Source: Carcharhinus longimanus
Lineage: Eukaryota
NCBI GenBank assembly: GCA_030264375.1
Contig: JASCQW010000156.1
Location: 12,262,158-12,326,157, forward strand
Reading direction: 5' to 3'
DNA: 64,000 nt
Shown in pieces: positions 5,684 through 54,600 of the stretch; positions within the stretch are counted from its first letter, which is position 1; each line of letters begins with the position of its first letter. Both the position numbers and the translations under genes were made by a program. A model generated the notes under the pieces. The model was not told the DNA's origin, searched no databases, and worked only from the letters and a program-made list of their open reading frames with translations.

Positions 5684-7244
5684 CTCACTGATCCCTATCT
5701 GTTGTAATTTTTTCTTGTTGTCAGGTATTTTGTTTCATATAGAAGTATTTGAAGTTCTAGAGGGAGACAGAATGTGTTTGAGTGATATTATCAGAGTTTG
5801 ATGTGAGCATCCCACCCACAGTAATTTTATTTAAAATATGTTTTTAATATTGAACAAATGAACTTCATAATTGACTAAGGGATTGTGCTTCAACTCACAC
5901 CCCCACACAGAGAAGCTTTGAATGGCATATTGTTTTCTGGTATTCAGGAAAATGTACTCCTGTCCTCAGAGAGCTGAGTTGATTCCAAAAATCAGTTGTT
6001 CAAAATTAAATTCAAAAGCAATTGGAATATTTGGAATTACTTCAAGTTATGATTCAGAACAAAAGTGGTGCATAAGTTGGGGAACAGCAATGGGTTCACC
6101 GTGAAGCACATCACATACCTGAATGCCACCCAAAAATAAATTGTATGTAGAGGCAATGGGAAGCGGGTGGGGGCTGTTGTAGGGAGGGGTGAAAGGAGTA
6201 GGTGGGAATCGTAATGGGTGAAGAAAGCAAGATTATGACTGGAGGATTTAGGTAATGGATGAAAGACAGCAGTCAAGTGTTAAAATGTGGATTCGGGGGG
6301 AAGAGCCAAGAGAGATCAGGAGGGAGATTGGAAAACCCAAACCAGAAAGGCTGGCATTTACAGTATAGGGAAGAAATGGGCCAATAGAATTACATTGTAG
6401 ATTCTGGAGGAGTGGGGCATGGTACAGAGAAGGTCACCTTAAGGGTAGAGACAAGTCATGACAGCACTTGGGGCCTGCTGACTTGCAGTAGAAAAAATAA
6501 AGATTCCCAAAAGGAGCTAAACTAAGGCTGGGAGGAAAGGAGGTGAGGAGACAGCCATTGACATTGCAGGGATGAAAAACTTTCTTAAATGTTAAAAAGT
6601 CATTGCAAAATAGTTGAAAATGTGACTCCTCAAAGGGATGAAAGAAATGACTACCCAAAATGATGGGAGGAGAAGTTAAATAAGTACACTGGACAACACA
6701 AGCATCGTCTGTGGACAAGGATAGGCTGTGCAAGCAGACCTAGGCATACCATGGCCTGAAAAGCAGATAGAGTGAGGTATATTGCAGTGCTGCAGATAGC
6801 ACATTCTTGGCACAGTGCAGGCACAGACTGATGGAACAATGATTGCAACTACACATAATTGCTGCCTAGTTAGTGAATGATTGCAGTTTGTGTTTAGATT
6901 TTAGGACATACAAATTACATGACACTGGCTGGCTCTGTCAGCTTCATTTCCAGTGGTCTATTATTTCAAAAAAAATGTTTCTGTGGTTTAAGTTTAAATT
7001 GAGGATCTTCAAATATGCAGTGGTACACCAGGGCCAATACATCTCCACGTCCTTAGTAAATGAGACACTTTCCAACAAAGCAAACAGTGCGTCATACAAC
7101 TTTTTGACCTATCTGGAATTGCTTCTGCTTCAATTCAGAAAACTGAAATTCCTGACTGTATTTCCTGAAAGGTTGACACCTTTGCTCCCTTTATAACTCA
7201 TTGGGTGATTATACCACCTAGCATTATACCGATCTTTAGAGAGT

Positions 7245-8318: not shown

Positions 8319-8668
8319 GTGACAGTGAGGTGGTAGATAACATGTATGAAACAGATCCTGAACCACCAGCTGGGGAGAGCGGAGAAGAAGAAACAGAAGA
8401 CAGCATCATGTCTCCAATTCCTGTGGGCCCACCATCCCCACTTCCCCCCAGCAATGAATTCACTCCAAAGGAAGGGTCCCCTTATGAAGCCCCTGTCTAC
8501 ATTCCTGATGACATTCCAATCCCACCTGACTTCGAGCTGAGAGAGTCTTCAGTCCCTGGAGCAGGATTAGGGATTTGGGCCAAGAAGAAGAATGAAGTAG
8601 GAGAGAAATTCGGTCCCTATGCAGGGATTCAGAGGGTGACACTAAAGGACCCAAACTTCGGATGGGAG
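8319..8668 (+). CDS. PRDM16: PRDM16 coding exon 2 (internal exon; N-terminal region and start of PR/SET domain)
   Basis: Pyrimidine tract plus ttcAG acceptor (8317-8318) and GAG|GTCAGT donor (8669). It translates (S)DSEVVDNMYETDPEPPAGESGEEETEDSIMSPIPVGPPSPLPPSNEFTPKEGSPYEAPVYIPDDIPIPPDFELRESSVPGAGLGIWAKKKNEVGEKFGPYAGIQRVTLKDPNFGWE. VVxNMYE and MSPIPVGPPSP point to PRDM16 rather than MECOM. The 350-nt length and phase 1 start/phase 0 end match the mammalian exon 2 as I recall it. Confidence 0.96.
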
Positions 8669-11600
8669 GTCAGTCATGTAATTGTTGATTTATTATTGTT
8701 CGTGATTGATTGGGCTCAGGGGTGCTACATGATTCAGACTAATGACATTTTTACCCTGACAATTTGTCACTGGCAATATCCCTACAATATTCCTACTAGT
8801 GCAAGCCTTCAGTATATATGATATAAACTCTATGCTTCTGACGGAGCCACAGCCCTAGTTTTCCACAGCAACCCTATGTCTGGGCCAGAGGAGAATAACA
8901 AGATAAAACAAAGAGGCAATGCTTTCAGATAATTTCAAAGTGGCTCTCATGATGTAACATCGCCAGTGTCAAATTCTATTGTTGCACCTAATGGATCCTA
9001 TTGGACTGTTGTCACGTGAGAAAATGTTAATTACGATCTTGTGCTTCTTTGAGGTCTAAGAGCAAGTCGAGGGCCTACCCTTACAGCCACAAATGGTGCA
9101 TTAGACAAACAGATTAAGGAAATGGGGAGAAAGTTGCTCAAAAACAGTAAGTCNNNNNNNNNNTGTATCATCAATTCTAAAGAATTGCACAGGGTACCTT
9201 TTTATTCTGTTTTTTATTGGATGTTTATGGTTGTTTTTAATAAGTCAATGTTTTTTCAAATGCATTTCACAACTTTCTCTTGCATGTTTGTGCAGATCTG
9301 AAAATTCAGATAATAGCTAAGTTATTGTAATATTGGTGCAATCGCTTAGCTAATGGTTTAGCTATGTTTGAAGGTAAAATCTGTAACTGGTAGTATGTAC
9401 TACTGGACATTTTCTTGTTCTGGTATTTGTGCTTATGATAACCAGAAGGAAAAACTGTTTCATACAAGCTTCATAAAAAATAAGATGTGACTGTTTTGGG
9501 AGTGACAGAACACTTCTGTCAAGTGTGTTTCCAGTATAGTGTTAGTATACTGCATGACCAGGAATCAGGTAATAATATACTCACTAAAGCACTTCTTCCA
9601 GTGAATTGTTGGATATTCTGCTTTATAATGGTGGGAGTCATGCCATATACTGGACAATATATTTGTTAGCTGATGAGAGACAACAGTTCATTTTAACTAG
9701 TATATCCCCAATGTAGAGCTATTCTGAGGCCAGTTAGAGGCTAATTGCTTGTAGGCATATCCAGGGGGTCAATCAGCAGTCAAAGGAAGCCAACTGGAAA
9801 TAACTGGCTTCATTTTTACAGTGTGGCACAAAACATTACATATGACAAAAGTGTGACAGAGTTATATTTGCAGTTCCCTGTGGCATTGCTCATGGTGAAT
9901 TGAAATATATGTTATTTTGTAGCTGTAAAGCTCTTAGCAATAAAGTGCAACAGTGGAAATATTACAGGAAGCAAGTGTGACACTTAGAGGATGTGCATGC
10001 TAGATGCAAGATTCATAATGCATTGTAGATTTGCAGTACTGTTATGGGACTTGGAAGGCATGCAACATACTGAGCCTCCATAGAATATAAATCAAGTGTC
10101 AGCATGTGTAAAACAGTTCTTGGATTCGAATTTATGCCTTGTTTTAATCTGACTAAAGTAATTTCATATTCCAATATCTTATTAACCTTATTGAAGAGTC
10201 ACCAGGATTTAAATCTAGTCTTTGTTATAACCTGATCGAAGAGCCTCCAGGATCCTGATCCAACCCTTGTATAATTTCACAGACGATGATTCCAAAGATG
10301 CTTGCCCAGTCCACATTTAATTGTGACTGAGTCAACTTCAGGATCCTGATCCAATGCATGTTTTAAGGCTGATTCTCACTTCTGTTGATAATGTAATCAT
10401 TATCAACATATTGTTTGGCATTTGTCGTTATGGAAGCATTTCCCTTTTTAAGAAAACAATGGCCAATGAGACAGAATTGAATGAATGGTTTTGTGTCTGC
10501 TTTGCCGCACAGTACCAGGATTGTCTTCAAAGAATAGCCATTGCGAGACTGTCCAATGAAAATGATGTAACATGGCTGAAGGTCATGTGACTATCAAACG
10601 TTGATCATTCACCACTGAAAGAAGATCAGTGCAGCTATATCACTTGGATAATGTTGTATTAATTCTTCTGCAAAAATAATATTTAATTGCAAGCTCAGCC
10701 CACCTGTGACATGTTTTAAATGACAAGCCAACACTTGCAGCAATGGTGAACTTTTATCATGGCTGCACTTTGACTGGGAAGATAAGGAACCAAACCATCT
10801 TACAGCATAGTGTTACCTGTACGTGAAGGCATCCAAATTGCCCTGTTTATAAAGAGCCATCACAATGGCAGGTCTACTTCTACAATTATCGTCATAACAT
10901 AAGTGGAGTAATGTGTAGTTCTTGTGTGTCTGTGCTACTTAGTTCTCAGTATCCATTATTTTCTGTATTCATCATTCTGGACTGTGTAGAGTAGCAGTTA
11001 TCATTCTAACAATCCTGAATATATGTTATTTCTTAGTATTTGTTCTTTGAACACTGTCTATGGATTCTCAGGATCAGCAAAAGCTTTGATCCTGGACACT
11101 GTTAGAAGGACGCTGATTCAGTTCTTTTCTAACGGAATTTGTTACTAATGGTGGTGGAGCCCTACATGCACCTGCTACCAATGGCACTACGACTGCAGAA
11201 AGGCCTTAACATTAGGTCTGAAATATTGCAGGGGGAAGGGAGACTTGCTGCCTTCAGGCACAGGAAGCTCCGAGGATTAATTTAGACCCATTCTACCAAG
11301 ACAGACAATTCAATCTACTGGATGCATAGCTTCAGGCTCTATCCATTCTCTGTCTATTCTTCTCCGACATAAATGTGTTTCACTAGTAATCGCCTATTTA
11401 AAAACCATTAAGTGGCTTTTATTGCAACATAATATTTCACTCACATTACTCAAAAGCTATTTAGATGAGGTTGCCTCTCTCCCTCAATAAGTTCAGGTGA
11501 AGCTGCAAAACAGTGTCAGTTCTGCAGCTAATGGATTCAGTCCATGTTAGTTTGAAGTAAATATCCTGTCTTACATTTTCCTGAACTTGATTAAGGGTCA

Positions 11601-43300: not shown

Positions 43301-44588
43301 TTGATCACCCAAATAAGGAACATAATGAACAATAACAGGTACCCCAAGTGTTCTAAGGATGTGAAGCCCAAATACAACAAGTTATGAGGAGTAAGCAATT
43401 TTTATCTGGGGCANNNNNNNNNNNNNNNNNNNNNNNNNNNNNNNNNNNNNNNNNNNNNNNNNNNNNNNNNNNNNNNNNNNNNNNNNNNNNNNNNNNNNNN
43501 NNNNNNNNNNNNNAACCAGTTCCCTTTGCAGGTTCACTTCATCATCAATCAAATGATCCCTGATAGCTGGAGGGTGGAGGATAATGGCGAAAGTATTCCA
43601 ATTTGACCTACTGTATTGGAAAGTTTCAGTGTATCGAATTATCAATGGCCACCATCCTCACCCCTCTCCCCACCCCAGAGAAGCTAAGTTGGTCAATGTT
43701 CTGTGTAAAATAGAATGGAACCAGCCACCAATCACAGTCTGTGCCAATTAGATTGATCAAAACTACAACCAGTTAATCTAGAACAGTCTTTCATACTGTT
43801 TGCATTCCAATTGATATTCGGGTAGTTGAAGCCCCCAACAAATACTGCCTTCTTTTTTTGCATATAGAAATTTGCTCTTCTGACTCCTCGCTATTTGGGA
43901 GTCTGTAGTTCACTCTTCGTATGTGGCTGTCCCTTTTTAATTTCTGAGTTCAACCCATACAGCCACATTTGATGCTTCCTTCAGTATATCATCCCTCCTC
44001 AGCCGTAATGATTGATATTTTTTTGAAGGGAGGTTTGAAGTGGCATTTCCCAGGGGTCAGGATTGGGATCCTTGCTTTCTGAAGTTATGTTGGCAAACTA
44101 AGATTAAGCACTACACTGTGTCTATCTGTTAGACCTGTGCTATATGGTTCTAGATTAAGTGGTTGTAGTTTAGATCAATCTAATTGGCACAGACTGTGAT
44201 TGGTGGCTGGTTCCATTCCATTTTACACAGAACGTTGACCAACTTAGCTTCTCAGGGGTGGGGAGAGGGGTGAGGATGGTGGCCATTGATAATTCAATAC
44301 ACTGAAGCTTTCCAATACAGCAGGTCAAATTGAGATACTTTCGCCATTATCCTCCACCCGCCAGCTATCAGGGATCATTTGATTGATGATGAAGTGAACC
44401 TGCAAAGGGAACTGGTTAAAAGTGCAGCTACTGAATGAAGATTTCACTTCACAGAAATATGCTATTATGGCATGTTGCCCCAGATAAAAATTGCTTACTC
44501 CTCATAACTTGTTGTATTTGGGCTTCACATCCTTAGAACACTTGGGGTACCTATTATTGTTCACTCTGTTCCTTATTTGGGTGATCAA
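43301..44588. repeat. Long inverted repeat: arms 43301-43784 and 44147-44588
   Basis: Arms are reverse complements end to end (ttgatcacccaaataaggaac..ttaatctagaac vs gttctagattaa..gttccttatttgggtgatcaa) with scattered substitutions; spacer ~360 bp. Confidence 0.95.
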
Positions 44589-48699: not shown

Positions 48700-50660
48700 A
48701 ATGGGGATTTATCAATCTTCAGCCCTGTTAATTTCTCCAATTAAACCTTCATTAGATTAGCGAGGCACCTGTGTCGGCACAGTCTTGGTAGGCCGACACA
48801 GTTCCTGTGCTGTTTTGTTCTTTGTTCATACTATTACAAATTTCCTTCAATTCCTTATTCTCCCTTGTCCCTTGGATCTCTAATTCTGGGAGATTTTTTG
48901 CATCTCTCTCAGTGAAGATAGACACAAAGTAATCATTAAGTTTCTTTAGCTTCTCTGCTATTTTGCTATTCCCTGTTATAACTTTTCCTGTCTTTATCTG
49001 TAATGGACCCACACTTGTCTTAGCCAAAGATTTATTTTTTAAGTACCTGCAGAAACAGTTACCATCTGTTCTTACATTTTTCCTAGTTTACATTCTTATC
49101 CGAAGCTTCCTTTCTTTATCAGTTTCCTGGTCCTCCTTAATGTATTCAAAAATCTTCCTGATCCTCAGGTTTATTACAGTTTCTGGTGGTTTTATAGGCC
49201 TTTATTTTTAATCTTTAATCCTTAATTTCCTTTTTAGCCACAGTTTCTTTGGGTGTTTATACCTTGAATGTATGTGTAAATACTGCAAATTATGTCATAA
49301 TGATTATCCATTGGAAAAGACTATTATATATTTTGTTGCATTTTCCCAATCCACCTCAACCAACTTACTCCTCATACCTTCACTTAATATCCTGGCTTCA
49401 GATTGAACTACCTCCCTTGCCGCATAATGTAAAACTTTATCATATTATGGTCACTCATCCCTCAGGCTCTTTTACAAGATTATTAATTAGTCTTTTTTCA
49501 TTACATAATACCAGATCTAAACTTGTTTGTTCTCCAGTCAATTCCTCAACATTCTACTCAAGAAAATGATCCCTAACACACTCCAGAACACTGCAGAAAC
49601 TTGCCTTTCATTACATTAGCACTTATCAGATTTCCTCAGTCTTTATGCAGATTGAAGTCACCCATGATCATTGTATTACCCATACTACATACTTCTCTAA
49701 TCTCCTGACTCATACCATGACCCACACTACCACTATTGTTTAATGGCTTATAAACAACTCCCACCAGTGTATGCTGCCCCCTTGCTGGTTCTTAGCTTCA
49801 CCCAAACAAGTCCTCCATTTTGTTCTTCCAAACTGAGATCTTCCCTTATTAATGTACAGATCCAATCCCTTATTATCAGCGCAACCCCACTCCCTGCCTG
49901 TCCTTAATAAAAATTAAGTGAAGTAATCAACAGTGGATTTCTCCTCTGATTACATCTGCTGGATGCATGAATGTCAAAGGAGGCCTTAGCTCCGATGTCC
50001 TCCAAGACAAATACTGAGTACCCAATATTCCAGTGTTGCAATTGTTAGAGGTTTCATTTTATGATGTGAAATGATACATTTTGGTGGGAAAAATAAGGAG
50101 AGGCATTATGAACTAAATAGTACCATTTAAAAGAGTGTGTGTGAATTGAGAGACTGGGGAATACATGTACACAACTATTTGAAGGTGGCAGGAGAAGTTT
50201 AGAAGGCTATCAATAATATTAATAGGAGATTATTGAATAGTGAGTTCCTAGTCTTGGTCACCCTGCAGCCATATTTATGGTAATTAGATCATACACATTT
50301 ATCTCTATTTATGCCTTTTAAATCTTGTTGTGATTTCTGCATGCATTCAGTAGAGTGCCTTTAACTTAGTCTTTCTGATATTATTCCACGTTCTAGATTC
50401 AGTTGATGCTTGCCTTCATTTTGCTTGTTGTATAATTTCACTTTTCTACTTCCCATTACCAGCTTTACTTTCTTTCAATTTGAACTACCCCTCGGAGTCC
50501 AACCTTCCTGCCCAACAGCACTAGCAAAGCTCCCTGTGAGGATATTCGTCCTGGTCCTGTTCAGGAATAACCTGTCTAGCTTGTACAAATCCCACCTGTC
50601 CTAATGCCACAAAATCTGATTGCCCCCCCCCATACCAATCTTCCTATTCTCATTCTCATC
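48700..50660 (-). mobile_element. CR1 LINE ORF2 5' part (endonuclease/linker), decayed
   Basis: LKIDKSP; VGPL...G.VI..AEKL..YFVSIFT; MIMGDFNLH; WLQGDQD*EL; DRQGVGLR. Confidence 0.85.
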
Positions 50661-50719
50661 CTGTCGAGATGTGCAATGATTGATAGTAGTTGAAAATACA
50701 CACCCTTAAAGGTACATGG

Positions 50720-51665
50720 GCCTCATATCAGAACAAAAGTTATCTAATAATTCCAATCACCTGTTCTTTCCCATAACCCTTCAAGCATTTATCAAATTGA
50801 CTTTAAAATGTTGTTGTTGAAACTGTCTCCACCACTCTCAGCTGGAATAATCAACAGTAAATTTCTCCTCTGATTCTCTGATCACATCTGCTGGATGCAC
50901 AAATGTCAAAGGAGGCCTTAGCTCCGATGTTCTCCAAGACAAATACTGAGTACCATCTAGTGCCCAACATTCCAGTGTTGCAATTCTTAGAGGTTTCATT
51001 TTATAATGTGAAATGATACATTTTAGCAGGATGAATAAAGAGAGGCACTGGAATGCAGTGCATTCCAAATCACAGGAACATACTGAGTAAGAAATGTTTC
51101 CTCATGTAGCCTCTGGTTCTTTTGCCAGTAGTCTTAAATTTGTGTCCTTTGGTTACTAATTCTTGGAAACATTGGCAGGATTTTCTAGCCATGCTTGCCC
51201 CAAGTTCGAAAAATCCCATCTAAGGTCAACAGACCTTTGCATCGTCCACCCTCCGGATCGCTACAGTTCCGTGATGGGCAGAATGGGAAAATGTCACCCA
51301 TTGTCTCCTTATTTACACTTTCAAAACCATTCATGATTCTGAACACCTCGATCAAATCTTCTCTTAATTTTCTTTGCTCTAAAAAAAACTAACCCATCTT
51401 CTCTATTTCCTCAAAATAACTGAGGCCCTCATCTCTGGTACCATTTTATTATGTCTCTTATGCCCTCGCTGCTCCAAGGGCTTGACATCTCCTGTTAATA
51501 AAGCCAGGCTTTTTGATAGCCTTCTAAGCTTCTCCTGCCACCTTCAAATAGTTGTGTACATGTACTCCCCGGTCTCTCAATTCACACACACTGTTTTAAA
51601 TGATACTATTTAGTTCATAATGCCTCTCCTTATTTTTACCGCTAAAATGTATCATTTCACATCAT
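50720..51665 (-). mobile_element. 5'-truncated CR1 LINE with MITE (51174-51299) and inverted insert
   Basis: catgattctgaacacctcgatcaaatcttctcttaa (LR.DLIEVFRIM); aaaatgtatcatttcacat (CEMIHF) at the truncation. Confidence 0.8.
51174..51299. mobile_element. Short MITE
   Basis: ggcaggattttc / gaaaatgtcaccc termini, flanked by att on both sides. Confidence 0.7.
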
Positions 51666-54600
51666 AAAATGAAACCTCTAAGAATTGCAACACTGGAATG
51701 TTGGGTACTCAGTGTTTGTCTTGGAGAACATCTGAGCTAAGGCCTCATTTGACATTCATGCATCCAACAGATGTTATTAGAGGAGAAATCCACTGTTGAT
51801 TATTTCAGTTGAGAGCAAGACTGTATGAGTCTGGCTATGATCGGATTGGGCAGCAGTTTTCCACCTTTCATGGTCAAATAGCCAGTTGACAATGTCTCAA
51901 CACAAAGCATAGCTAGTTTGACAATGTACTAGAGGACGACTGGTACNNNNNNNNNNNNNNNNNNNNNNNNNNNNNNNNNNNNNNNNNNNNNNNNNNNNNN
52001 NNNNNNNNNNNNNNNNNNNNNNNNNNNNNNNNNNNNNNNNNNNNNNNNNNNNNNNNNNNNNNGGGTGTTGAAGCTAATGCTTGGAATTAATAATTAGAAA
52101 ATTTAATACTCCTAATTCTACAGTAACAAATTGTAAGTTGTGCATATATAGGGAGTTTAACCATAGCAATGAATGTTAGATTGCCTTGTACAATGGTTTC
52201 AGCTGTTTCATGTCATTTGTTTGAGAATCAGCTCCTTGTGTAATGAATGGATAGCGGGGCTAGTATTGAAAGCAAAACAATGAATCAAAGGGATTTCTAC
52301 AAGTTGTAAACTTGTTTTGTGAAAGTTGATTGATAATACCGCTAAAACATTAGTTCGATTCCGTTCTGAAACAGTATTCAAAAGACAAACAGTGATTGAC
52401 AGAATTCACTTAGCGATTTCAAGAATTATACTTGGACAAATTTACTCCCTTCATGTCTTGAAGTGGTTGGCTGTGCCAGGCTACTGTCAGCACTCAGTCT
52501 GTAAGAGCTTTTTGGCTATTCTACCATGAAGTTAATTGTGCCTTCATCTTGTTTTCACACAATGCATTTAGGATTCACTGGAGAGCAATCAATGGGCTCA
52601 AATTCCAGAAAAATCAAAGGTTATTTTGCTTAGAAACTTCTGTTTTTTCATTTTCTTATTAAAATGAGAGATATTAATGTTGGAGGAAGAAATCACTTAG
52701 GGAATGGAACACTCCCTGCCTTAGACAACTAGTGCCAGAAGTAGGCTCCATCTAGTTAGGTGCAGCATAAGTTAGATACAGAAGGTAGTTCCCTTCAGTC
52801 TACCTCTGAAAGCTACCTCAGTTCCAGCCAGAAAGGAGTACCCCCACTTCATTAATGCAATGCTTTTATCCAGCGCTTGAACCAGTCACCTCCAGGCCCG
52901 TTTCAAATGGCAATGCCAATGAGGAAGGTTTTATATTATGGGCTGGATTTGTATATTGATCCCAGCGTTGAGTGTTTAATCCATCAAGTACCTGATGCAA
53001 AATTCTGAGAATTCAATTGTTGACCAAAACACTGCTTTGCTAGGAAGGGTCAGTGCAAATGCCTTTGCTGATTTTATGATTTCCCAACTCCAGTGTATTG
53101 ATATCAATGCAAATTACAAGACACCCAGATAAAGGAATTTTCTTCCAATTTCCTGTTTTCCAAAAGAACACTGTCTTCACAAATGAAGTGTCTGACAAAT
53201 CTTTTCGTGTTGGCTGTTAAAGAAGGAGCCACAAAACGTGTATACCATTTTTACCATGATGTGTTGACTCTTTGGTGCAATGCTAATGTGTCCTGCTTTT
53301 GTAAACACATTAGCATTTGTCAAATGTAATCTGTAGAATTGAGAGCCTCAGCATCCGTTTTTAGCACTGTGGAAATGAATGGATTTTGACTGAGTTAAAA
53401 TTTCACCATCTGTGATGAGATGAGATAGCATGACCATTTATTCAACTTTGAACCTGATAACCAAACTCTGTGTTTCTTACTCTTTAAAAAAAAAGATGAG
53501 ATGCGCATGCATGGAGCAAACTAGCTACCTGAAATTGCAATTGAGCCTATGTTCAGTTTTGTGAATGCCTGTTCAGATCAGCTTTTCTTTATTTTCTGCT
53601 ACTCTCCTGTTCAGAAAACCATCTGGTGTTTGACAGGGCACAAGGTGGCCACATGACAACAAAACCCTGAAGCAAGATGACCCTTTGTTCATTCAATATC
53701 CCCTCCTCCACAATCTCACCCCCCACAATCCCAGACACCCCACCCCTCACCCCAACCCCCACCACCAAACTGGGCTCCCTTAACCTGAAGCAGAGACCGA
53801 AAGAGAAAAATAGTGCAAATTTGGAATCCAGAACATCATAAGATAATGAGAAAGCTGATTACTTTTAATGCCAGTTTCCCCTTTGACTCATCAACCTCTC
53901 TTTCATGGTTTCTGGTTCTCAGCCTTCCTCGTCCTTGCTAGTTTATTTTAATTCCCTTTGGGTAATCCAACTCCTTGAGGAGTCAGAAACTACAATTCCA
54001 GGGGAAGATAAGTGTGCTGATTATAGGAGTATAATATTTTCTTGTTTACCAAAGAATGATCATCATCCAGTTTGACCTAAAATTCTCAAAGTTGCAGTAT
54101 GGAAACAATTATCTGCCTTACACTGTGCTACAGAAAAGAATTGGTTCATTTAAATTTTGCAAGATATCAAGTTGCCAGTGGCAAAACTAACCTTACAGAG
54201 CATGTGAGAATTGCTTAAAAGAACACAAATATTTTTCTGCTACTTTTAATTAAAGTACATTTTCAGACTGTCCTTATATAACTGTGAGGAAATAATAACT
54301 TCCATTTATAACATTCTAAATTTTGTGAAGTGTGAATATTTTGTGATTTAAATTGGCCCATTCCTGACAGATGTGATGAAGAACAGTAGCGTTAGAGTCA
54401 GTGATTTTGTATTTTGGTATAGTTTTCAGGTGCTCGGAGCAACATCAGCATGACTCCATACTGTTAACGTATTTTCTATCCAAAAACTCTGTCACTTTGC
54501 AACAGGGAAATTAAATCCTGACGCAGGGCAGACATTTAGGAAGGCACTTGCTTAGAAAAATAGATGTTTTGCAAACTTTTCCTTTTTGAGGTGAAAGGAT

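What the first reader, a model, noticed from the sequence alone, without database searches (positions are those of the whole stretch)
49914..51815. One junction segment copied twice, inverted, into two different CR1 elements
Seen: the source 51487-51815 spans the 5' truncation point of a CR1 and its non-CR1 flank. Copy A (49914-50230) interrupts an upstream CR1 endonuclease between WLQGDQD*EL and DRQG. Copy B (50835-51047) interrupts the 3' part of the source CR1 itself. Because the chimeric junction is copied, independent TE insertion cannot explain it. A and B begin at almost the same source position but differ in length and indels.
Basis: partly seen in the sequence, partly recalled or inferred. 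Interest (0 to 1): 0.72.

Follow-up and report, generated by a model that had tools for sequence, protein, structure and literature searches.

The report
Local DNA copied twice, reused breakpoint
A short non-coding stretch was copied backwards into two spots within 2 kb of itself, likely by DNA-copying slips of a known kind; a related species has the shorter copy but not the longer one, so the first slip likely set up the second, which starts at the same base.

Summary
Confirmed. A (49918-50230) and B (50842-51047) are inverted copies of one CR1/unique-flank junction (51487-51815). The flank has 3 hits genome-wide, all here, and contigs of several organisms bridge all four insertion junctions, so this is neither a repeat family nor an assembly error.

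New here: organism E carries B but has the empty site for A, which points to B first. A lacks B's 8-nt duplication, so A was copied from the source. Both copies begin at the same source base (51808), and A ends at a ~100-nt deletion in the source CR1. B's junctions show microhomology and a 10-nt fold-back linker.

Best reading: two successive microhomology-mediated template-switch insertions, the second likely cued by the inverted repeat left by the first (0.55). Main rival: one event, with A later lost in E (0.3); divergences cannot separate the two ages (p=0.30).

Single local inverted copies are common here (5 loci in 1.14 Mb); only the breakpoint reuse is unusual. Two earlier scan notes describe similar single captures in this genome. 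No function is evident.

The parts
48825..49917 (-). Host CR1 (endonuclease region), part left of copy A
   Evidence: Paralogous CR1 loci align over 48825-49905 at about 70%; endonuclease-like frame pieces (motif names recalled)
49918..50230 (+). Copy A: inverted copy of source 51808-51487; replaces 5 nt of the host site; 2-nt overlap (AA) at the left junction
   Evidence: empty site 49917>50233 with 5 letters between in organism E (X10 record 1)
50233..50660 (-). Host CR1, part right of copy A (ORF1 end and endonuclease start)
   Evidence: Collinear with the left part in L035-L062
50740..50841 (-). 3' end of the source CR1, left of copy B; 50835-50841 matches the source at 6 of 7 nt (microhomology); left limit approximate
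50842..51047 (+). Copy B: inverted copy of source 51808-51621 with an 8-nt tandem duplication (also in organism E) and a 10-nt insert (absent in E, present in D)
51048..51057 (+). 10-nt linker, 9 nt of it the reverse complement of 51059-51067 (fold-back micro-insertion)
51058..51661 (-). Source CR1 (5'-truncated RT end and 3' part), with a ~91-106 nt internal deletion at 51487-51489
51160..51305 (.). High-copy repeat inserted in the source CR1; present in organism E too
   Evidence: 1050 candidates, 40 scored; X10 record 4
51487..51815 (-). Source segment S: CR1 part 51487-51661 plus unique flank 51662-51815
51816..51946 (.). Uncopied unique flank continuing from S up to the N gap (51947-52062)
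   Evidence: bridged across 51815 by X1, X18, X5 and X8 contigs

Best explanation
A and B are inverted local copies of one source segment, likely made by two successive microhomology-mediated template switches during germline replication or break repair, likely B first and A later, with A's start likely set by the inverted repeat that B created. Shown: the copies, their orientation, near-zero loss at A's target, B without A in organism E, A's derivation from the source and not from B, the shared start at source 51808, and A's other end at a deletion in the source CR1. Inferred step 1: a 3' end inside the CR1 3' region folded back for 10 nt, annealed by 3-5 nt to the opposite strand about 0.6-0.75 kb away, copied about 190 nt and returned through a 6-7 nt match. 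Inferred step 2: a later break at about 51487 (losing ~100 nt of CR1) left an end that was captured at the endonuclease site 1.3 kb away and copied through S; the copy was cut off where the B/S homology stops (hairpin base, or flap trimming after annealing to B) and rejoined with 2 nt of overlap. No function is proposed: these are most likely neutral repair scars.
For: Order: X10 (organism E) record 1 joins 49917 to 50233 with 218 and 238 nt on either side at 13 and 12 differences, whereas paralogous CR1 copies are 70-80% identical there; the same run holds B with its right junction (record 3, 50835-51138) and its left junction through records 2 and 3, which overlap by 30 nt. Two further derived indels group the window with organism D against E: the 10-nt insert in B, and a 20-nt loss at 50505 that CR1 paralogues show as extra sequence. 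A from S: A lacks the 8-nt duplication that B has in E. Private substitutions in 189 columns: S 7, A 7, B 11, the direction expected if B is older. Junctions: B left 6 of 7 nt; B right AGGCA in 2 of 7 and GCA in 5 of 7 paralogous rows; 10-nt inverted linker. B and S still fold as a stem closing at 50835:51815 with 181 B bases paired. The signature matches MMB-TI as defined in PMC8421209.
Against: The age difference is not significant: A-S 21/310, B-S 18/189, Fisher p=0.30; private counts chi-square p=0.53. A-S divergence (6.8%, CI 4.2-10.2) is no lower than window-E divergence (86/1578, 5.4%; p=0.35), so A could predate the split from E. Organism D, which has A, is not closer overall (127/2047, 6.2%) than E. 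The empty site rests on one contig of one run (depth 9). B's own empty site was seen in no organism; its microhomologies are read from paralogues 70-80% identical. A's junction overlaps are only about 2 nt. Whether E lacks the 51487 deletion could not be read. How a B/S stem would fix A's end is inferred only.
Confidence: 0.55

Rival explanations
1. One complex event: a single advancing strand switched twice, 600 nt apart, onto the same loose template piece (51487 to about 51810, for example a displaced nascent fragment), ran off the same end both times, and the gap left at 51487 healed as the deletion. Organism E later lost A by recombination or conversion with an ancestral chromosome while the allele was still polymorphic.
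For: Explains in one step the shared start, the same orientation and A's end at the deletion. The S/A/B tree is statistically a star (7/7/11). A-S divergence is as large as window-E divergence. Multi-switch germline events with up to five templates are described (PMC8421209), and local n-jumps are argued to be single events (PMC7025897).
Against: Needs an exchange within the 600 nt between A and B, or exact removal of 315 nt, to give E's clean empty site. Two other derived indels sort with A (window and D against E). B carries more private change than A or S.
Confidence: 0.3
2. Two independent template switches whose shared start and whose end at the deletion are coincidence.
For: Local inverted copies are frequent: 5 loci in 1,138,763 non-N bases, so some regions will be hit twice. 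Both targets offer a short match to 51809-51815.
Against: A start anywhere within about 2 kb would fall in the same 7-nt window only about 0.3% of the time (my arithmetic, no call), and A's other end also sits on a breakpoint. None of the other 4 loci has a second copy.
Confidence: 0.07
3. RNA-templated repair in cis: a minus-strand transcript starting near 51810 was reverse-transcribed at nearby breaks, so both copies end at the RNA's 5' end and differ at their internally primed other end.
For: A fixed 5' end would explain the shared start in events of different age. Transcript-templated break repair is reported in human cells (PMC12065846, search listing and abstract start only).
Against: No dispersed copies exist; I saw no poly(A) or target-site duplication at either insertion; it does not explain A's end at the deletion; no RNA-labelled run was among the 21 listed for a DNA-type search, so expression was not tested.
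Confidence: 0.05
4. A mobile chimeric unit (CR1 with a 5' flank, or a new short element), or an assembly error beside the N gap.
For: The source lies 130 nt from an N gap; part of the unit is CR1.
Against: Only three copies in 2.68 Gb, all within 2 kb; copies differ by 7-10%; X17 contigs match with 0 differences across three of the four junctions, and all four are bridged by X1 and X18.
Confidence: 0.02

Closest known systems
MMB-TI, microhomology-mediated break-induced-replication templated insertions (Osia et al. 2021, PMC8421209; passages and part 1 of 2 of section 10 read)
   Same: Insertion close to and inverted against its template, microhomology at junctions, return to the original template, found as germline variants, sometimes with several switches.
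   Different: In the text read, complex events string several templates into one insertion. Here one template was inserted at two separate sites 600 nt apart with the same start, and an outgroup separates the two. The supplements were not read and may hold such cases.
Four-point short-range template switch in great apes (Walker et al. 2021, PMC7954356; passages read)
   Same: Switch to the opposite strand, reverse copying and return, leaving an inverted repeat; direction resolved with outgroups.
   Different: Their copied pieces have median 12 nt and maximum 128 nt with templates tens to hundreds of nt away; here 190 and 320 nt, from 0.6 to 1.6 kb.
Local n-jumps (Li et al. 2020, PMC7025897; passages read)
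   Same: Local copy-and-paste with inverted junctions and tightly clustered breakpoints on one derivative chromosome.
   Different: Somatic cancer events, read as single events; this one is germline, sub-kilobase, shared between species and probably staged.
Fold-back inverted insertions at breaks in yeast (PMC11724301; passages read)
   Same: B's 10-nt inverted linker fits the 2-150 nt fold-back class; one end with microhomology and the other with 0-5 nt resembles A.
   Different: A and B are longer than that class and come from further away; the enzymes cannot be tested here.

Membership tests
MMB-TI / local template-switch insertion | Insertion lies near its template | tested here: met
   574 and 1294 nt between arms; no other source in the genome
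MMB-TI / local template-switch insertion | Inverted relative to the template | tested here: met
MMB-TI / local template-switch insertion | Template retained (copy, not cut and paste) | tested here: met
   S is continuous with its flank in the window and in X1, X18, X5, X8 contigs
MMB-TI / local template-switch insertion | Return to the original template with little loss | tested here: met
   A replaces 5 nt (orthologous empty site); B about 0 nt judged from paralogues
MMB-TI / local template-switch insertion | Microhomology at junctions: copy B | tested here: met
   Left 6 of 7 nt; right GCA in 5 of 7 and AGGCA in 2 of 7 paralogous rows; target read from paralogues only
MMB-TI / local template-switch insertion | Microhomology at junctions: copy A | tested here: inconclusive
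   2 nt at the left; right junction ambiguous over about 5 nt; no more than chance could give
MMB-TI / local template-switch insertion | Pathway (MMBIR, polymerase theta, or fold-back plus end joining) | not testable with these tools
   Sequence scars overlap between pathways; PMC8421209 itself does not exclude others
Retrotransposed unit (CR1 transduction or new SINE) | Dispersed copies | tested here: not met
   3 of 3 hits within 2 kb; pattern search
Retrotransposed unit (CR1 transduction or new SINE) | Element 3' end or target-site duplication at the insertion | tested here: not met
   Both copies stop inside the RT-coding part; A's target lost 5 nt
ODIRA / DUP-TRP-INV-DUP | Inverted triplication with duplicated flanks | tested here: not met
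   The spacer and flanks are single-copy and collinear; family features from search listings and recall

The most novel reading that the evidence does not exclude
A fossil mutational cascade: the inverted repeat made by one template-switch insertion dictated, to the base, the breakpoint of a second insertion on a later branch, together with a deletion in the source. If general, old inverted micro-duplications are heritable hotspots that copy themselves locally, and species comparisons can order the steps of structures that are normally read as single catastrophic events.
Probability: 0.4. Interest if true: 0.5.

Novelty: new member of a known kind. Interest (0 to 1): 0.32.

Why it matters
Clusters of local inverted copies with shared breakpoints are usually taken as one event (PMC7025897). 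This locus has an outgroup with only one of the two copies, so it is a small natural test of whether such clusters can build up in stages with breakpoint reuse. It has no evident function: the stretch is non-coding, made of dead CR1 fragments, and lies about 41 kb downstream of a PRDM16-like exon. Its value is as a lead for a genome-wide count, not as a single locus.

Tried and rejected
1. Inversion of the spacer in organism B: X6 record 8 (depth 3.1) joins 51234-51629 (+) to 50095-49869 (-). The join lies in a 34-nt block identical in A and S. A bare k-mer model made such chimeras rare (0.1-0.7% of unbranched passes), but a model with tip clipping and bubble popping gave this chimeric join about as often as the true passage through A (72 against 94 over six settings). 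Not used as evidence.
2. X10 has no long contig over 51476-51786, and its record 5 ends with 28 unlike letters near the deletion. This could mean that E lacks the deletion, but a hole proves nothing; not counted. X17 has no cover beyond about 51620; likewise not counted.
3. Flank as diverged upstream CR1: no similarity in 27 paralogues and no hit with E below 0.15 outside this locus in 1.52 Mb.
4. A copied from B: rejected, A is longer and lacks B's 8-nt duplication. B copied from A: rejected, E has B without A.
5. Structured RNA: Rfam gave one hit at E=0.62, outside the feature.
6. Pfam naming of the broken CR1 frames gave no result; the CR1 label rests on DNA similarity to a high-copy family and recalled motifs.
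7. Next PRDM16 exon by short motifs in 264 kb: none convincing, so the intronic position is not shown.
8. X7 (organism C) was too sparse to score A.
9. Literature: seven searches listed no paper describing two staged insertions that share a breakpoint; only passages were read and no supplements.
Full report
Observation. The window lies in a 2.68-Gb animal genome; earlier scan notes call it a shark or ray, which I did not test. A pairs with the source as a gap-free 301-nt inverted repeat at 93%, and B as a 213-column inverted repeat at 83% with 8-nt and 10-nt extras. CR1 similarity in the source stops at about 51661, and 27 paralogues show unrelated sequence where the flank lies. The flank occurs three times in the genome, as S, A and B; a 21-nt pattern with one mismatch adds only a 22-nt chance match. 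The search tool warns that it skips very common words, which is why the pattern search was run. The CR1 label rests on similarity to a high-copy family and on recalled motifs in the translations.

Reality. 21 runs were listed and 8 were laid, all as contigs, none as long reads. With at least 31 nt on each side, A's left junction is bridged by X17, X1, X18, X5 and X6; A's right by X17, X1, X18 and X8; B's left by X1, X18, X5 and X8; B's right by X17, X1, X18, X5, X8, X10 and X7. X17 shows 0 differences and may be the assembled sample, so it is not independent. Listed long pieces differ from the window by 1.2% (X1), 2.0% (X18), 5.4% (X10) and 6.2% (X8). Contigs break in blocks of 34-42 nt shared between copies, so they do not test the orientation of the spacer.

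Order of events. X10 (organism E) joins 49917 to 50233 with five letters between, with 218 and 238 nt of flank at about 95% identity; paralogues reach only 70-80% there, so this is the orthologous empty site. The same run has B with its 8-nt duplication and linker but without the 10-nt insert. X8 (organism D) has A's right junction, B with the insert, and S. A 20-nt stretch at 50505 is present in E and in CR1 paralogues and missing in the window and D. Three derived characters thus group the window with D, and B precedes A on this haplotype. A lacks the 8-nt duplication 35 nt from its start, so it was copied from S. Against a firm order: private substitutions are 7, 7 and 11 in 189 columns (p=0.53); A-S 21/310 against B-S 18/189 gives p=0.30; and A-S is not lower than window-E (p=0.35). 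Both events therefore fall close to the split from E, where unsorted polymorphism is possible.

Junction anatomy. The first unambiguous copied base is source 51808 in both copies. B's left junction matches the source at 6 of 7 nt; on the right, paralogues show GCA in 5 of 7 rows and AGGCA in 2 of 7 at the return point, and B is followed by a 10-nt linker that is an inverted copy of the next target bases. A has a 2-nt overlap at the left and an ambiguous right junction. A's far end at 51487 coincides with an internal deletion in the source CR1: 5 of the 16 paralogues that passed the score cut-off show one gap of 91-106 nt at 51487-51489, most of the others show a similar total split into pieces nearby, and four end their alignment near that point. 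Both ends of A thus sit on other breakpoints. B and S still fold as a stem closing at 50835:51815.

Mechanism. Proximity, inversion, retention of the template, return with little loss and microhomology match the MMB-TI signature (PMC8421209; passages and part 1 of section 10) and the four-point template-switch model, at longer range than the ape set (median 12 nt, maximum 128; PMC7954356, passages). The linker resembles yeast fold-back insertions (PMC11724301, passages). I commit to two stages. B formed first. Later a break near 51487 lost about 100 nt, its end was captured at the endonuclease site, and copying through S was cut off where B/S homology ends. The link between the stem and A's start is inferred from the coincidence only. 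The single-event model explains the coincidences more simply, as local n-jumps are usually read (PMC7025897, passages), but needs A to be removed cleanly in E. I put 0.55 on stages with a causal link, 0.3 on one event, 0.07 on coincidence and 0.05 on an RNA template.

Background. In 1,138,763 non-N bases (the window with 200 kb on each side, plus four 200-kb regions chosen arbitrarily), 7 inverted pairs passed the filter (at least 100 nt, at least 80%, gap 50-6000 nt, at least 80 nt per copy not matched elsewhere in the sample), at 5 loci: this one, another in the window and three outside. 52 direct pairs also passed, most from one tandem array. One outside case (L172, 299 nt, 88%) is also part repeat and part unique, and sits between collinear halves of a repeat. 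None of the other four loci has a second copy. Uniqueness was judged against the sample, not the whole genome. Single copies are therefore ordinary; roughly one per 230-360 kb. Two earlier notes report similar single local captures in this genome (not checked); a word search for double cases found none.

Side lead rejected. One low-depth contig of organism B reads as an inversion between A and S, but simulated low-depth assembly gives that join about as often as the true path.

Context and verdict. No ORF of 120 aa or more overlaps the feature, and Rfam finds nothing in it. An exon at about 8330-8670 matches PRDM16 best (E=1.5e-32) and MECOM second; the feature is probably in its intron, which is not shown. 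The finding is real and belongs to a known class. The base-exact reuse of a breakpoint, with an outgroup holding one copy only, was not found in seven literature searches, but I read passages only and no supplements. Interest 0.32.

Noticed in passing
window 43301-43784 and 44147-44588: A second, younger local inverted copy (96-97% identical, N gap inside the copy), 363 nt from its unique source; translations on both sides read as two halves of a CR1 endonuclease (motifs recalled).
   Followed up: partly
window 8330-8670 (+): Exon of a PRDM16-like PR-domain gene (best PDB hit 2n1i, E=1.5e-32; MECOM second). The next exon was not found by motifs in the following 255 kb.
   Followed up: partly
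window 51160-51305: High-copy repeat of about 140 nt inserted in the source CR1, with partly self-complementary relatives; not classified.
   Followed up: partly
L172:7374-7661 and 9426-9724: Independent case of a repeat/unique junction (299 nt, 88%) copied inverted into a nearby repeat.
   Followed up: partly
L130:37-272 and 891-1138; L175:6056-6181 and 6502-6626: Two more local inverted copies of sample-unique DNA (89% and 87%).
   Followed up: no
window 50835-50864 and 51786-51815 in run X10: Three contig ends meet at this 30-mer and the B contig has depth 14 against about 9, hinting that B and S are more alike in organism E (possible gene conversion). Weak; sequences not available.
   Followed up: no
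window 49869-50095 and 51234-51629 in run X6: One contig reads as a spacer inversion between A and S; as likely an assembly chimera.
   Followed up: yes
window 50654-50736: A low-copy repeat of about 80 nt lies between the source CR1 3' end and the host CR1 (11 of 13 non-self hits); not classified.
   Followed up: no
L166 (G000:C190, about 50181400-50184030): Tandem array with a period of about 32 nt, not matched elsewhere in the sample.
   Followed up: no
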